Source: an uncultured virus (IMG/VR IMGVR_UViG_3300010885_010158) (lineage: Duplodnaviria; Heunggongvirae; Uroviricota; Caudoviricetes). Taken from it: DNA of 20,000 nucleotides. Made by a program: the position numbers and the translations under genes. The first letter of the stretch is position 1. Every line of letters begins with the position of its first letter. Shown one piece after another: positions 13,182 through 14,855 of the stretch. The DNA is taken from IMG/VR virus record IMGVR_UViG_3300010885_010158; one strand, written 5' to 3'. The notes beneath the pieces were generated by a model that did not search any database, was not told where the DNA came from, and saw nothing but the letters and a program-made list of their open reading frames with translations.

Positions 13182-13217
13182 AAAACCCCGGACTTAAAAC
13201 CTCCGGGGTTTTTTTTT
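13182..13217 (+). terminator. Intrinsic terminator immediately upstream of the tRNA array
   Basis: AAAACCCCGGA/TCCGGGGTTTT 11-bp stem and a 9-T run, ending 5 nt before tRNA-Ser. Confidence 0.9.
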
Positions 13218-13222
13218 GTTTT

Positions 13223-13310
13223 GGAAGTGTGGATGAGTGGTTTAAATCAGCAGTCTTGAAAACTGCCGTGTCGAAAGGCACCGTGAGTTCGAATCTCACC
13301 GCTTCCGCCA
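13223..13310 (+). tRNA. tRNA-Ser(TGA)
   Basis: Cloverleaf; GCAGT-CT TGA AA-ACTGC; long variable arm; G73; CCA. Confidence 0.95.
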
Positions 13311-13311
13311 A

Positions 13312-13386
13312 GGGCCATTAGCTTAATGGTAAAGCAGTCGACTCATAATCGATTGAGTGATAGTTCAATTCTATCATGGCCCACCA
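13312..13386 (+). tRNA. tRNA-Ile2(CAT) (lysidine type, reads ATA)
   Basis: CT CAT AA loop; paired G1-C72 and C4/C5 in the acceptor stem as in ileX-type tRNAs; CCA. Confidence 0.8.
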
Positions 13387-13392
13387 AGTTAC

Positions 13393-13467
13393 ACCCTTGT
13401 AGGCTAAATGGTAAAGCCACTAACTTCATGAGAGTTAGGTTTCTTGGTTCGAATCCAAGCAAGGGTA
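13393..13467 (+). tRNA. Atypical tRNA-like gene with expanded anticodon loop, undetermined isotype, no CCA
   Basis: ACCCTTG/CAAGGGT acceptor, GGCT/AGCC D-stem, CTAAC/GTTAG stem with 9-nt loop TTCATGAGA, CTTGG-TTCGAAT-CCAAG T-arm. Confidence 0.75.
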
Positions 13468-13468
13468 T

Positions 13469-13553
13469 GCGAGTATGGTGAAATAGGTAGACACAAGAGA
13501 CTTAAAATCTCTCGACGCAAGTCGTGCCAGTTCGATTCTGGCTACTCGCACCA
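13469..13553 (+). tRNA. tRNA-Leu(TAA)
   Basis: AGAGA-CT TAA AA-TCTCT; long variable arm; A73; CCA. Confidence 0.95.
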
Positions 13554-13557
13554 AGAT

Positions 13558-13634
13558 ACGACTATAGCTCAGACGGATAGAGCAACAGCCTTCTAAGCTG
13601 TGGGTCGCACGTTCGAATCGTGCTAGTCGTGCCA
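13558..13634 (+). tRNA. tRNA-Arg(TCT)
   Basis: ACAGC-CT TCT AA-GCTGT; CCA. Confidence 0.95.
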
Positions 13635-13649
13635 TAAGATTTTTTTGGT

Positions 13650-13723
13650 GTGGCCATGATGTAATGGTAGCATCTCAGACTGTGATTCTGATCGCACGGG
13701 TTCAAATCCCGTTGGTCACCCCA
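13650..13723 (+). tRNA. tRNA-His(GTG)
   Basis: TCAGA-CT GTG AT-TCTGA; C73; CCA; T rather than G at position -1. Confidence 0.93.
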
Positions 13724-13735
13724 AAGAAATTTTAT

Positions 13736-13809
13736 TCCTCGATGGTGTAATGGCAGCATAGCGGTCTCCAAAACCGTTGGTTGGGGTTCGAGTCCCTATC
13801 GGGGGGCCA
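13736..13809 (+). tRNA. tRNA-Trp(CCA)
   Basis: GCGGT-CT CCA AA-ACCGT; G73; CCA. Confidence 0.93.
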
Positions 13810-13811
13810 AG

Positions 13812-13886
13812 AGTGAGATGACAGAATGGCAATGTCGCAGTCTGCAAAACTGTTGTTCGTGGGTTCGATTCCCACTCTCACTTCCA
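13812..13886 (+). tRNA. tRNA-Cys(GCA)
   Basis: GCAGT-CT GCA AA-ACTGT; U73; CCA. Confidence 0.93.
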
Positions 13887-13907
13887 TATTAGAACTTAAG
13901 ACTAATA

Positions 13908-13936
13908 TGTACAACGAGAAAAAAATATGGTATAAT
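13908..13936 (+). promoter_or_regulatory. sigma70-like promoter inside the tRNA array
   Basis: TGTACA-17 nt-TATAAT with TG extension; predicted start about 13942-13943. Confidence 0.8.
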
Positions 13937-13941
13937 AATAC

Positions 13942-14171
13942 CATAATCAGATTTAATTGCATTGGTTACCAAGCCAGTAGGTAATTTAGCAGTGAATAAC
14001 CAGTTGACGGACTGGCACTTCTAAGTTACACGAAAGATGGAAACGAAGTCACTTAGTGACGGATACGGTGGTCACGCTGGAACAAGTTGGCAAGTAATGT
14101 GTGCGAAAGACAAATACGTAGACGATACGTTAGGTTTTTTCAAACATCCAGTGCAATTAAATGTGATTATG
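13942..14171 (+). ncRNA. Unidentified structured RNA 1 (about 230 nt)
   Basis: 24-bp closing stem 13942-13965/14148-14171 (one mismatch, one G-U) starting at the predicted TSS; several internal hairpins. Confidence 0.65.
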
Positions 14172-14173
14172 AT

Positions 14174-14248
14174 GCTCGGTTCGTCTATCGGTTAGGACAT
14201 TGCCCTTTCACGGCAGTAAGACCAGTTCGATTCTGGTACCGAGTGCCA
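14174..14248 (+). tRNA. tRNA-Glu(TTC)
   Basis: TTGCC-CT TTC AC-GGCAG; CCA. Confidence 0.93.
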
Positions 14249-14395
14249 TTTGTTAAGTGTTATCAAAGGTATCGTTATAGGACGCTATAACTATGCGGGT
14301 CCAACTGGCGAGGAACGGATCCTAATATAACTGCTATTCGCTATGGGATGGAAGCACCAGACCCCTAAATTGGCACGATAACACTTAACAAATGG
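14246..14395 (+). ncRNA. Unidentified structured RNA 2 (about 150 nt)
   Basis: Perfect 19-bp inverted repeat CCATTTGTTAAGTGTTATC/GATAACACTTAACAAATGG enclosing 112 nt with internal hairpins; fills the Glu-Tyr spacer. Confidence 0.65.
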
Positions 14396-14477
14396 AGAAT
14401 GAGCAGCATTGGCGACTGCAGCAGACTGTAAATCTGTGTCCTCTGGAAACTTGGTTCGACTCCAAGATTCTCCACCA
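14394..14477 (+). tRNA. tRNA-Tyr(GTA)
   Basis: GCAGA-CT GTA AA-TCTGT; long variable arm; A73; CCA. Confidence 0.92.
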
Positions 14478-14481
14478 AATT

Positions 14482-14556
14482 GGTCTCATAGTATAACGGT
14501 TAGTACGGTGGCTTGTCACGCCACTAATAGGAGTTCGATTCTCCTTGGGACCGCCA
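14482..14556 (+). tRNA. tRNA-Asp(GTC)
   Basis: GTGGC-TT GTC AC-GCCAC; G73; CCA. Confidence 0.93.
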
Positions 14557-14562
14557 AGTTAT

Positions 14563-14637
14563 CGCGGGGTAGCTCAGTAGTAGAGTGCTGGACTCATAAT
14601 CCAGAGGTCGGTGGTGCGATTCCATCTCCCGCAACCA
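14563..14637 (+). tRNA. tRNA-fMet-like (CAT)
   Basis: CGCGGGG 5' end with C1:A72 mismatch; CTGGA-CT CAT AA-TCCAG; T-loop TGCGATT; CCA. Confidence 0.85.
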
Positions 14638-14675
14638 TTGATATATAGCTATACAATAACAAAGAGGACTTATGT

Positions 14676-14855
14676 ATGAATGAAGAAAATAAAGTAGTCG
14701 AAGAAGAATTAGAATTAGAAAAAGAAAAGAAAGAACAAAAACATAAAGTTGTATTACCTCATCAAAAAATTAAAGGCGTTGTTCCACAAAAGAAAATGCC
14801 TAAACAAGTTTTCAACAAAAAACCAATGACAAGAAGTGCAGGTAGAGGTAGGTAA
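14676..14855 (+). CDS. Small charged protein, 59 aa, ending TRSAGRGR; not in ORF track
   Basis: AGAGGA SD; MNEENKVVEEELELEKEKKEQKHKVVLPHQKIKGVVPQKKMPKQVFNKKPMTRSAGRGR. Confidence 0.7.
   Translation: MNEENKVVEEELELEKEKKEQKHKVVLPHQKIKGVVPQKKMPKQVFNKKPMTRSAGRGR

What the first reader, a model, noticed from the sequence alone, without database searches (positions are those of the whole stretch)
13942..14171. About 230-nt unidentified structured RNA with its own promoter inside the tRNA array
Seen: it begins at the predicted TSS of promoter 13908-13936 and is closed by a 24-bp stem (CATAATCAGATTTAATTGCATTGG with CCAGTGCAATTAAATGTGATTATG; one mismatch and one G-U, which suggests selection at RNA level). 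It ends 2 nt before tRNA-Glu. Internally there is a long arm TAATTTAG..AGTG..CCAGT-tgacgg-ACTGG-CACT..CTAAGTTA. An alternative hairpin TTACC/GGTAA has a loop GCCAGT complementary to ACTGGC, which could be a switch or pseudoknot. Further hairpins are GTCAC/GTGAC and ACGTA/TACGT, and there are two CGAAAGA motifs. Established: T4 encodes stable RNAs of unknown function (RNA C and RNA D) in its tRNA cluster. Inference: a stable phage ncRNA released by RNase P cleavage at tRNA-Glu, possibly a decoy or sponge for defence proteins, or a ribozyme.
Basis: partly seen in the sequence, partly recalled or inferred. Interest (0 to 1): 0.75.

Follow-up and report, generated by a model that had tools for sequence, protein, structure and literature searches.

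The report
New phage RNA beside tRNA-Glu

Summary
Window 13942-14171 (+) folds far better than shuffles (z -7.1). It is closed by a 23-pair stem with one G.G mismatch and ends 2 nt before tRNA-Glu.

It belongs to a family of at least 87 distinct sequences in uncultivated viral contigs. The shared 67-pair structure is 97.5% paired, against 32-40% when partners are slid. Compensatory changes occur at 51 of 67 pairs, and G.U outnumbers A.C 342 to 31, so selection acts on the plus-strand RNA.

- **Not a known family:** there was no significant match in Rfam 15 apart from tRNA-Glu. I found no homology to T4 rnaC/rnaD, GOLLD or E. coli RNase P RNA. It was absent from 50,697 GenBank phage records (BLAST only) and from all cellular-genome loci tested.
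- **Genomic setting:** it was single-copy in 5 of 5 large phage genomes (131-367 kb). tRNA-Glu abuts it in 67 of the 79 members that have tRNAs nearby. In 57 members the first four bases of the closing stem are the upstream tRNA's NCCA end.
- **Window copy:** it has swapped order with tRNA-Glu and, alone among 135 aligned copies, lacks hairpin P8. It still keeps compensated pairs in P7.

Best reading: a stable RNA co-transcribed with tRNAs and cut out by tRNA-processing enzymes. It probably acts in trans, possibly in tRNA-Glu or translation biology. That function is inferred, not shown.

The parts
13908..13936 (+). Sigma-70-type promoter-like site (TGTACA, 17 nt, TATAAT with TG extension). A transcript from it would start at about the first base of P1.
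   Evidence: 10 of 12 matches; the region as a whole is not enriched. Relatives have strong TTGAC.-17-TATAAT sites in the syntenic spacer before tRNA-Glu/RNA1 or directly before stand-alone copies (read by eye).
13942..13965 (+). P1, 5' strand of the closing stem. Bases 13946-13949 (ATCA) are the relic of the ACCA tRNA 3' end that starts P1 in relatives.
   Evidence: Covariation at 16 of 18 P1 pairs. Alignment to relatives.
13969..13978 (+). P2 (13969-13972) and P2a (13974-13978), 5' strands. They pair with 14087-14090 and 14076-14080 and enclose the 5' domain.
   Evidence: For example, pair 35/188 is A-U in 46 sequences and G-C in 12.
13981..14029 (+). Long arm: P3 (13981-13988 with 14022-14029), P3a (13991-13994 with 14016-14019) and P3b (14000-14005 with 14010-14015), capped by loop GACG (14006-14009).
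   Evidence: All 6 P3b pairs and all 4 P3a pairs show compensatory change. The loop is G[A/C]CG across the family.
14030..14036 (+). Junction ACGAAAG. C, A and GAA (14032-14034) are invariant in the 21-sequence alignment.
   Evidence: invariant columns C88 A89 G91 A92 A93. GAA is kept in divergent members.
14037..14073 (+). P4, a variable peripheral region that includes hairpin GTCAC-TTA-GTGAC (14048-14060). It is absent or replaced in some relatives.
14076..14090 (+). 3' strands of P2a and P2, with the conserved internal loop AACAAG between them.
14094..14101 (+). GTAATGTG, a nearly invariant linker between the two domains. Its last three bases (14099-14101) begin P5 (14099-14102 with 14144-14147).
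14105..14141 (+). 3' domain. P6 is 14105-14110 with 14136-14141. P7 is 14116-14120 with 14126-14130, with loop GACGA (14121-14125). Hairpin P8, present in every other copy, is missing between 14130 and 14136.
   Evidence: the linker is 5 nt here and 19-27 nt in the other 134 of 135 aligned rows. Three P7 pairs have changed with full compensation relative to close relatives.
14148..14171 (+). P1, 3' strand of the closing stem.
14174..14248 (+). tRNA-Glu (UUC) with encoded CCA, the family's constant neighbour. Here it lies 2 nt downstream. In the closest relatives it lies directly upstream.
14249..14393 (+). RNA2, a second and unrelated structured RNA module with a 16-bp closing stem. It fills the spacer between tRNA-Glu and tRNA-Tyr, and in relatives it directly follows RNA1.
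   Evidence: z -5.3. (25 related spacers). (20 sequences, 36 pairs, 21 with compensatory change). No Rfam match.

Best explanation
I call it RNA1, or the tRNA-Glu-linked RNA. It is found in large uncultivated phages.

**Expression and processing.** It is transcribed on the same strand as the tRNA array, from a promoter that in this family sits just before the tRNA-Glu/RNA1 pair. The long terminal helix P1 (20-26 bp) joins the two ends. This isolates the fold of the module from the neighbouring tRNAs and marks the boundaries where host tRNA-processing enzymes release it. In this window, RNase P would cut at the 5' end of tRNA-Glu, 2 nt after P1. In most relatives, 3'-end maturation of the upstream tRNA would define the other boundary, because that tRNA's NCCA forms the first four pairs of P1.

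**The product.** The released RNA would be stable and resistant to exonucleases. It has two domains: a 5' multi-helix junction carrying the long arm P3-P3b, and a 3' three-way junction carrying P7. Its invariant unpaired segments are GGUUAC, GUAGGU, CA.GAA and GUAAUGUG. Its hairpin loops are G[A/C]CG on P3b and GACGR on P7. This pattern points to a defined tertiary fold that binds a partner in trans.

**Likely pathway.** tRNA-Glu stays its immediate neighbour through many rearrangements of the array, so the partner or pathway most likely concerns tRNA-Glu or translation.

**What is shown and what is inferred.** Shown: the family, the structure, strand-specific selection, single copy per genome, the tRNA-Glu linkage and the NCCA pairing. 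Inferred: transcription start, processing enzymes, stability, trans action and the target.
For: - **Fold:** z -7.1.
- **Family size:** 26 loci from an exact P3b word. 75 of 79 loci from a P7/P8 word pass the covariance model at 133-276 bits. The window has a single hit of 210 bits. 59 of 80 loci from a 5'-domain word pass. Together this gives 87 distinct full-length sequences.
- **Structure:** 97.5% of cells are paired, against 84.4% in shuffles (0 of 500 reach it) and 32-40% when slid. 51 of 67 pairs change on both sides.
- **Strand:** G.U/U.G 342 against A.C/C.A 31, and 276 against 26 in the second set.
- **Copy number:** one copy in each of 5 genomes of 131-367 kb.
- **tRNA-Glu link:** it abuts 67 of the 79 members that have a tRNA in the flank (47 upstream, 20 within 10 nt downstream). 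The neighbour on the other side varies: Tyr, Cys, Asn, Lys, Ala, Asp, Ile, Gln, Leu or a promoter.
- **NCCA pairing:** P1 starts with the tRNA's NCCA in 57 of 87 members, and the discriminator pair covaries (A-U 41, G-U 10, G-C 4).
- **P1 length:** 20-30 pairs in 65 of 76 members measured. Six of the 11 short ones are stand-alone copies with their own promoter.
- **Promoters:** present in the syntenic spacer.
- **Selection in the window lineage:** the ACCA-to-ATCA change is compensated by UGGU-to-UGAU, and three P7 pairs are compensated.
- **Weak hint of expression:** a 173-nt contig from a lake-water RNA library is identical to 13980-14152.
Against: - No experiment shows a transcript, its ends or its stability. 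The RNA-library contig could derive from contaminating DNA (caveat).
- The promoter-like site is not statistically distinctive on its own.
- The tRNA-Glu linkage could be inherited synteny among related phages rather than a functional coupling. The loci are not phylogenetically independent.
- Stand-alone copies lie far from any tRNA, so adjacency is not essential.
- No partner was identified. The phage genomes that carry RNA1 encode no Ro60/TROVE, RNase III or GluRS (0 of 5 each).
- The window copy lacks P8, which every other copy has, so this particular copy could be impaired.
Confidence: 0.5

Rival explanations
1. Cis-only module. RNA1 has no trans function. It is a folding insulator and processing signal that controls how, when or how much tRNA-Glu is matured, for example by holding the NCCA end in P1 until a nuclease cuts the helix.
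For: 57 of 87 members pair the upstream tRNA's NCCA in P1, and the discriminator pair covaries. P1 is long where the RNA sits inside a tRNA transcript and short in six stand-alone copies. RNA2 is built the same way, with a closing stem that fills a tRNA-tRNA spacer.
Against: A processing signal needs only a helix. Here about 200 nt of internal sequence, with many invariant unpaired bases and two domains, is conserved. Stand-alone copies with their own promoter and no adjacent tRNA keep the whole core. In the window no tRNA lies upstream, yet P1 is kept and even lengthened.
Confidence: 0.12
2. Anti-defence decoy or sponge. This would be an abundant, stable RNA expressed together with a spare tRNA-Glu. 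It would bind and neutralise a host defence factor, such as a tRNA-targeting nuclease, or sequester a signalling molecule.
For: It is found only in phages: 0 of 80 cellular-genome loci pass the model, and a second word found 0 exact hits. It is co-located with phage tRNAs, which from general knowledge can serve to replace tRNAs cut by host nucleases. It is promoter-proximal. Its conserved hairpin loops look like recognition sites.
Against: No sequence or structural mimicry of the tRNA-Glu anticodon arm was seen by eye. No defence system or partner is identified. Nothing in these data separates this reading from other trans-acting roles.
Confidence: 0.13
3. RNA-only multimer, in the manner of GOLLD and ROOL. 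The RNA would self-assemble into a higher-order particle, possibly carrying the covalently linked tRNA.
For: It shares the genomic niche of GOLLD and ROOL, which are phage-encoded, near tRNA islands and of unknown function, and which form cages (passages read in PMC12286853). A GOLLD lies about 800 nt downstream of RNA1 in one 367-kb genome. Short RNAs can form large assemblies (abstract and passages of bioRxiv 10.64898/2026.07.01.735769). A tRNA can sit between RNA1 and RNA2, as tRNAs can sit in the GOLLD linker.
Against: There is no similarity to GOLLD or ROOL models. No self-complementary conserved loop was found: GACG and GCCG are not palindromes. No assembly data exist.
Confidence: 0.1
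4. Self-cleaving or tRNA-processing ribozyme of a new class. It would cut at its own boundary to release the adjoining tRNA, which is the role proposed for HDV-like theta ribozymes next to phage tRNAs.
For: It starts exactly at the tRNA's 3' end in 57 of 87 members and ends 0-10 nt before a tRNA in 34 of 87. Many unpaired bases are invariant. Theta ribozymes adjacent to viral tRNAs are on record (title and abstract start only, from the search listing).
Against: No match to any ribozyme family in Rfam at E up to 10. The presumed cut after CCA would lie inside a regular helix with no conserved internal loop, and the bases after CCA vary (GAUU, UAUU, AAUU, AACU). Copies with a promoter and no upstream tRNA keep the full core. 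At 210-250 nt it is far larger than known small self-cleavers (general knowledge).
Confidence: 0.07
5. A DNA-level element: a miniature inverted-repeat transposon or a recombination or replication site whose terminal inverted repeats only look like an RNA stem.
For: It has 24-bp terminal inverted repeats. The module changes place relative to tRNA-Glu.
Against: G.U pairs outnumber A.C mismatches 342 to 31, which makes sense only on one RNA strand. Internal helices covary. There is one copy per genome in 5 of 5 genomes. Terminal repeats differ completely in sequence between members while pairing is kept.
Confidence: 0.02

Closest known systems
Phage T4 rnaC and rnaD (species 1 and 2 stable RNAs)
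   Same: They are small RNAs encoded inside a phage tRNA cluster, on the tRNA strand, starting 1-6 nt after a tRNA or after each other. They are annotated as stable RNAs and no function is stated (T4 GenBank record). rnaC also folds well (z -4.6).
   Different: There is no homology: the RNA1 model scores at most 3.0 bits on rnaC (E 0.34, filters off). The T4 RNAs are 119-139 nt and follow tRNA-Arg. RNA1 is 210-250 nt, has two domains and follows or precedes tRNA-Glu.
GOLLD (RF02032) and ROOL ornate RNAs
   Same: They are encoded by phages, often near tRNA islands. They are large and intricately folded, their function is unknown, and a tRNA can be embedded between domains (passages of PMC12286853). 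One RNA1-bearing genome also has a GOLLD about 800 nt away.
   Different: There is no model match. RNA1 is two to four times smaller. It is linked specifically to tRNA-Glu, and it occurs without GOLLD in 4 of 5 genomes. No assembly data exist for RNA1.
Bacterial Y RNAs (YrlA) bound by Ro60/Rsr
   Same: A long stem is formed by the 5' and 3' ends, joined to a complex module. Most members have a T-loop-like hairpin (GGUUCAAAAC in P8). My description of Y RNA features is recalled, not taken from a call.
   Different: No Rfam match at E up to 10. No TROVE/Ro60 gene in 0 of 5 RNA1-bearing phage genomes, although the control genomes did match. P8 is replaced by unrelated hairpins in divergent members and is absent in the window.
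T-box leader RNAs
   Same: A UGGN segment pairs with a tRNA's NCCA end, here in cis, in 57 of 87 members. The invariant GAA in a junction equals the Glu codon that would pair with the UUC anticodon. T-box features are recalled, not taken from a call.
   Different: No Rfam match. There is no downstream terminator/antiterminator and no regulated gene. The GAA never varies, so its pairing cannot be tested by covariation. The NCCA pairing also occurs with tRNA-Gln, Ile and Leu.
HDV-like theta ribozymes next to phage tRNAs
   Same: They are structured RNAs placed directly beside phage tRNA genes (title and abstract start only, search listing).
   Different: No match to HDV-type models. RNA1 is several times larger, no pseudoknot is supported by covariation, and the tRNA's CCA is paired inside P1.

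Membership tests
Any Rfam 15 family (4227 models) | Covariance-model match at or near the gathering score | tested here: not met
   - Window at gathering threshold: only 12 tRNAs.
- Window 13850-14420 at E up to 10: the only matches over RNA1 are CRISPR-DR38 (17.1 bits against 44; E 4.3; minus strand) and RAGATH-22 (13.2 bits against 120.3; E 7.1).
- Relative L008 1440-1840: only Zeta-pan (13.4 bits against 56.7; E 9.2).
T4 rnaC/rnaD | Sequence or structure homology | tested here: not met
   cmsearch with R1, filters off, over T4 70.7-72.7 kb: the best score over rnaC is 3.0 bits (E 0.34). All hits are 6.1 bits or less.
T4 rnaC/rnaD | Location inside a phage tRNA cluster, same strand, abutting a tRNA | tested here: met
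T4 rnaC/rnaD | Accumulates as a stable RNA in infected cells | not testable with these tools
   The only data are an identical 173-nt contig in one RNA library. This shows neither transcription nor stability.
GOLLD (RF02032) | Match to the conserved 3' domain model | tested here: not met
   No GOLLD hit over RNA1. The model does find a true GOLLD elsewhere in L003/G002 at 201 bits.
Y RNA / YrlA | Model match, and a Ro60 (TROVE) partner | tested here: not met
   No Rfam hit. PF05731 in 0 of 5 RNA1-bearing phage genomes, 4 of them complete. The controls match in Deinococcus and Bacteroides. A host-encoded Ro cannot be excluded.
Y RNA / YrlA | Long terminal stem plus a tRNA-like module | tested here: inconclusive
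   The terminal stem is present. A T-loop-like P8 is present in most members, replaced in divergent ones, and absent in the window.
Bacterial RNase P RNA | Model match, or significant similarity to the conserved core | tested here: not met
   No Rfam RNase P hit. The best local alignment of a typical member to E. coli rnpB is a 9-nt word scoring 18, and 232 of 500 shuffles score at least as high.
HDV-like (theta) ribozymes | Compact nested double pseudoknot, with cleavage at its own 5' end just after the tRNA | tested here: not met
   No HDV-family hit. No pseudoknot pair stands out in an all-against-all covariation screen. The CCA is base-paired inside P1. Cleavage itself is not testable here.
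T-box | Specifier codon, UGGN-NCCA pairing, and a downstream expression platform | tested here: inconclusive
   UGGN-NCCA pairing in cis is met in 57 of 87 members. An invariant GAA is present but cannot be tested by covariation. No expression platform and no Rfam T-box hit, so it is not a member.
Miniature inverted-repeat transposon | Many copies per genome, and conservation that does not depend on strand | tested here: not met
   One copy in each of 5 genomes. G.U 342 against A.C 31.

The most novel reading that the evidence does not exclude
RNA1 could be a dedicated receptor for tRNA-Glu that reads the tRNA the way a T-box does. The invariant GAA in the junction would pair with the UUC anticodon. 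The UGGU at the end of P1 would pair with the NCCA end. A phage would use this as a free-standing RNA, not a gene leader, to escort, sequester, or sense the charging state of tRNA-Glu during infection. It might also present tRNA-Glu as part of an RNA-only particle together with RNA2.
Probability: 0.07. Interest if true: 0.9.

Novelty: new variant of a known kind. Interest (0 to 1): 0.62.

Why it matters
Phage tRNA islands are known to hold large folded RNAs (T4 rnaC/rnaD, GOLLD, ROOL) whose functions have stayed open for years or decades. This finding adds a compact class of about 240 nt with unusually clear covariation and at least 87 distinct sequences. Unlike the others, it has a specific and rearrangement-proof link to one tRNA, tRNA-Glu, including base pairing with the tRNA's NCCA end.

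That link gives concrete handles for experiments:
- processing of a defined tRNA-RNA1 precursor;
- binding to tRNA-Glu or its enzymes;
- structure determination of an RNA small enough for cryo-EM or crystallography.

The intergenic "spacers" of phage tRNA arrays may therefore be a rich and under-annotated source of RNA families.

Tried and rejected
- **RNase P RNA.** A remembered likeness (AAGUCC ... UAGGGCAGG) prompted a test against E. coli rnpB. The likeness is a 9-nt word, no better than 232 of 500 shuffles. Rejected.
- **T4 rnaC/rnaD homology.** Rejected.
- **Y RNA with a phage Ro.** No TROVE gene in 5 genomes.
- **Phage-encoded RNase III or GluRS as partner.** 0 of 5 genomes each.
- **GenBank phages.**
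  - BLASTN of the window copy and of a typical copy found no match in 50,697 records.
  - BLASTN of RNA2 likewise found nothing.
  - The model found nothing in three cultured jumbo phages whose NrdB is nearest to the window's, at 63% identity: 121Q, fHe-Yen9-03 and Kaldavass.
- **Cellular genomes.**
  - The 3' word gave 0 hits.
I judge these to be chance matches, since I expect hundreds by chance in 596 Gb (my own estimate).
  - 0 of the 80 loci fetched pass the model.
- **Pseudoknot screen.** An all-against-all covariation screen produced only pairs explained by two clades changing together.
- **RNA1 against tRNA-Glu duplex prediction.** It gave long meaningless duplexes and was dropped.
- **Nearest held virus record G001.** It is a 10-kb fragment without the region.
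- **Earlier notes of this scan.** Nothing by place or by sequence.
- **Metatranscriptome contigs (4 runs laid).** Only one identical contig lies inside RNA1 (X16, 13980-14152). One diverged contig covers 13991-14085 (X17; 8 differences, 3 gaps). Contigs cannot show ends, strand or level. Stretches without cover mean nothing.
- **Catalogue of about 10,000 viral structured-RNA candidates (PMC10690425).**
  - Six contig numbers were absent from the readable tables.
  - The alignment archives could not be read.
  - So I cannot say whether this motif is among its unnamed candidates.
- **Literature searches.** Searches on tRNA array or island, phage, structured RNA, GOLLD, theta ribozyme, novel RNA motif and covariation found no description of this RNA.
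Full report
**1. The observation**

The sequence at 13942-14171 is as described. ARAGORN and Rfam place 12 tRNA genes on the plus strand between 13223 and 14637. There are two long gaps: 13887-14173 (between tRNA-Cys and tRNA-Glu) and 14249-14393 (between tRNA-Glu and tRNA-Tyr).

As RNA, the 230 nt fold to -76.1 kcal/mol. Dinucleotide shuffles average -48.6 +/- 3.9, giving z -7.1, and 0 of 200 shuffles fold as well. The ends form 23 pairs with one G.G mismatch and one U.G pair. The element ends 2 nt before tRNA-Glu.

A promoter-like site (TGTACA, 17 nt, TATAAT, with a TG extension) lies at 13908-13936. A transcript from it would start at about the first base of the stem. Such sites are not enriched in the region as a whole (8 found, 9.7 +/- 3.2 expected).

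**2. It is a member of a family**

No Rfam 15 family matches. The gathering-threshold scan of the window gave only the 12 tRNAs. A permissive scan (E up to 10) of 13850-14420 gave only chance-level hits over the element. A permissive scan of a typical relative gave the same result. BLASTN against 50,697 GenBank phage records found nothing, either for the window copy or for a typical member.

Three scans of the viral contig collection brought in relatives:
- An exact 19-nt word from one hairpin gave 26 loci, all alignable at 74-94% identity.
- A degenerate word from the 3' domain gave 79 loci.

I built a covariance model from 21 sequences. It matched 75 of the 79 loci at 133-276 bits. The window gave a single hit, 13946-14167, at 210 bits. 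It also matched 59 of the 80 loci, with scores down to 90 bits for full-length hits. After removing duplicates there are 87 distinct full-length sequences.

**3. The structure is under selection, on this strand**

The counts below are on 59 distinct sequences.

| Measure | Consensus structure | Control |
|---|---|---|
| Cells forming standard pairs | 97.5% | 84.4% in column shuffles (0 of 500 reach it) |
| Same, with 3' partners slid 1-3 columns | - | 32-40% |
| Pairs changed on both sides | 51 of 67 | - |

That alignment was fitted to the model, which favours the structure. However, the independent MAFFT/RNAalifold run on 21 sequences already showed 32 of 67 pairs with compensatory change. 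The closing stem has entirely different sequences in different members.

G.U pairs outnumber A.C mismatches 342 to 31, and 276 to 26 in the second set. This is expected only if the plus-strand RNA is the selected object. It argues against a DNA element with terminal inverted repeats.

**4. Anatomy (window coordinates)**

- **P1** (13942-13965 with 14148-14171) closes the molecule.
- **The 5' domain** is enclosed by P2/P2a (13969-13978 with 14076-14090). It contains:
  - the long arm P3-P3a-P3b (13981-14029), capped by a G[A/C]CG loop;
  - the junction ACGAAAG (14030-14036), whose GAA never varies;
  - a variable, sometimes absent, P4 (14037-14073).
- **The linker** GUAAUGUG is nearly invariant and leads into the 3' domain.
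- **The 3' domain** consists of P5, P6 (14105-14110 with 14136-14141) and P7 (14116-14130) with loop GACGR. In every other copy there is also a hairpin P8.

P8 comes in at least three unrelated forms across the family. The window is the only one of 135 aligned rows with a 5-nt linker in place of the usual 19-27 nt.

The window copy is nevertheless still under selection. Three P7 pairs differ from close relatives with full compensation. The stem start ATCA, which is ACCA in relatives, is matched by UGAU, which is UGGU in relatives.

An all-against-all covariation screen gave no convincing pseudoknot.

**5. Context**

The window is phage DNA. It encodes ribonucleotide reductase, exonucleases and a Clp-like protease. 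Its NrdB is 63% identical to those of 350-kb jumbo phages such as 121Q.

RNA1 is present once in each of five large phage genomes of 131-367 kb, four of them rated complete. It is absent from three cultured jumbo phages searched with the model. It is also absent from all cellular-genome loci tested: one word gave 0 exact hits, and 0 of 80 fetched hits of the other word pass the model.

Of the 87 distinct members, 79 have a tRNA in the fetched flank, and tRNA-Glu abuts RNA1 in 67 of them.

| Position of tRNA-Glu | Members | Detail |
|---|---|---|
| Directly upstream | 47 | Overlaps RNA1 by 4 nt, so the tRNA's NCCA is the first four bases of P1 |
| Downstream | 20 | Starts within 10 nt of the end of P1 |

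Ten more members have tRNA-Gln, Ile or Leu in the upstream, NCCA-sharing position. Several of these have tRNA-Glu just downstream. The neighbour on the other side varies widely: Tyr, Cys, Asn, Lys, Ala, Asp, Ile, or a promoter. The discriminator-base pair of P1 covaries (A-U 41, G-U 10, G-C 4).

In the window's closest relatives the order is tRNA-Cys, promoter spacer, tRNA-Glu, RNA1, RNA2, tRNA-Tyr. In the window, tRNA-Glu and RNA1 have changed places.

The spacer in front of the pair forms its own family of 29 members. By eye it holds strong TTGAC.-17-TATAAT promoters and a conserved GTTCTTTAAAAATT leader.

A minority of members sit far from tRNAs, directly behind such a promoter. Six of these have a P1 of only 4-10 pairs. 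In contrast, 65 of the 76 members measured have 20-30 pairs. The contigs with these stand-alone copies are only 5-16% complete, so tRNA arrays elsewhere in those genomes cannot be excluded.

**6. Expression**

Contigs from four metatranscriptome runs were laid on 13200-14700. One 173-nt contig from a lake-water RNA library is identical to 13980-14152. A diverged contig from another run covers 13991-14085. Contigs cannot show ends, strand or level, and DNA can contaminate RNA libraries. This is only a weak hint of expression.

**7. What it most likely is and does**

*Shown:* a conserved, strand-specific, single-copy, two-domain RNA structure. It is phage-restricted as far as I searched. It is physically coupled to tRNA-Glu and base-paired to the 3' end of the preceding tRNA.

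*Inferred from general knowledge of tRNA operon processing:*
- It is co-transcribed with the tRNAs from the promoter in front of the pair.
- RNase P cutting at the next tRNA sets its 3' end. In this window that is tRNA-Glu, 2 nt downstream.
- Maturation of the upstream tRNA's 3' end sets its 5' end, or transcription initiation does so, as in the window.
- Cleavage of the 20-26-bp P1 by a double-strand nuclease such as host RNase III is possible. No RNase III is encoded by 5 of 5 phage genomes.
- The long P1 then protects the ends and keeps the module from interfering with tRNA folding.

The amount of invariant unpaired sequence, and the survival of the full core in stand-alone copies, argue for a function of the folded RNA itself and not only of the helix. 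Because tRNA-Glu remains adjacent through many rearrangements, I favour a role in tRNA-Glu or translation biology. This is the weakest step.

*Rivals:* a purely cis processing or insulating module, an anti-defence decoy, an RNA-only assembly like GOLLD or ROOL, a new self-cleaving ribozyme, and a DNA element. These are weighed in the Rival explanations section.

**8. Comparison with known RNAs**

- **T4 rnaC/rnaD.** T4's record annotates them as small stable RNAs directly after tRNA-Arg. The niche is the same, but there is no homology.
- **GOLLD and ROOL.** They are described as phage RNAs near tRNA islands with unknown function, forming cages (passages read in PMC12286853). The niche is the same, a GOLLD lies 800 nt from RNA1 in one genome, but no model matches.
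- **Y RNA.** A long terminal stem is shared. There is no model match and no Ro60 gene.
- **RNase P RNA.** Rejected.
- **T-box.** NCCA pairing and an invariant GAA are intriguing. There is no expression platform, and the GAA cannot be tested.
- **Theta ribozymes.** They share the position beside phage tRNAs (listing only), but the size and fold differ.

**9. Novelty**

I searched the following:
- Rfam 15;
- GenBank phages (by BLAST);
- three full-text queries;
- the readable tables of a catalogue of about 10,000 viral structured-RNA candidates;
- this scan's earlier notes.

None describes this RNA. The catalogue's alignment archives could not be read, so an unnamed entry there cannot be excluded.

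I rate it a new class within a known kind, namely the structured RNAs of phage tRNA islands. The interest is moderate to high for RNA biology. The structure is unusually well supported, and the tRNA-Glu link gives testable handles. The function remains unknown.

Noticed in passing
window 14249-14393 (+): A second, unrelated structured RNA (RNA2) fills the spacer between tRNA-Glu and tRNA-Tyr. It has a 16-bp closing stem and z -5.3. There are 25 related spacers in relatives, usually directly after RNA1. Of 36 consensus pairs, 21 show compensatory change in 20 sequences. No Rfam match.
   Followed up: partly
relatives, e.g. L010:1239-1361 (-), L053:427-553 (-), L031:669-801 (+): A third spacer family (16 members, 123-143 nt, plus one of 208 nt) takes the place of RNA2 after RNA1. 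It has a closing stem and conserved words such as GTAAGCC, AAACGGTA and TAGCAAATAGT. The Rfam gathering scan of L010 and L031 showed nothing there.
   Followed up: no
L003:2482-2947 = G002:164359-164824: A GOLLD RNA (201 bits) with a tRNA-Lys inside it lies about 800 nt downstream of RNA1 in a 367-kb phage genome. GOLLD is absent from the other four RNA1-bearing genomes.
   Followed up: partly
relatives, spacer before tRNA-Glu/RNA1 (e.g. L065, L114, L162): The upstream spacer is itself a family of 29 members. It has one or two strong TTGAC.-17-TATAAT promoters, often preceded by a hairpin, followed by a conserved leader GTTCTTTAAAAATT just before the tRNA or RNA1. The window lacks this leader.
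   Followed up: partly
window 13942-14248 compared with relatives: tRNA-Glu and RNA1 have swapped order in the window relative to its closest relatives. The former tRNA end ACCA survives as ATCA at 13946-13949, with a compensating UGGU-to-UGAU change. P1 has gained four extra pairs.
   Followed up: yes
window 13393-13467 (+): ARAGORN calls a tRNA-His with anticodon ATG at an unusual position (36), beside a normal tRNA-His(GTG) at 13650-13723. Rfam scores it 52.6 bits as tRNA. Its identity is doubtful.
   Followed up: no
L002, L012, L025 (stand-alone RNA1 copies): Synteny is conserved around the stand-alone copies. Upstream lies a small predicted membrane protein ending ...RVANKPQ...GLYKA.G. 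Next come a promoter, RNA1, a second promoter (absent in L002) and a small gene beginning MKALQEFIAQKN / MNIQTIEAYVAQKN. The functions are unknown.
   Followed up: no
L227:1909-2047 (-) (T4 rnaC): T4 rnaC folds well (z -4.6) and ends in a T-arm-like hairpin, CCGGGUUCGAAUCCCGG. T4 rnaD does not fold better than shuffles (z -0.8).
   Followed up: no
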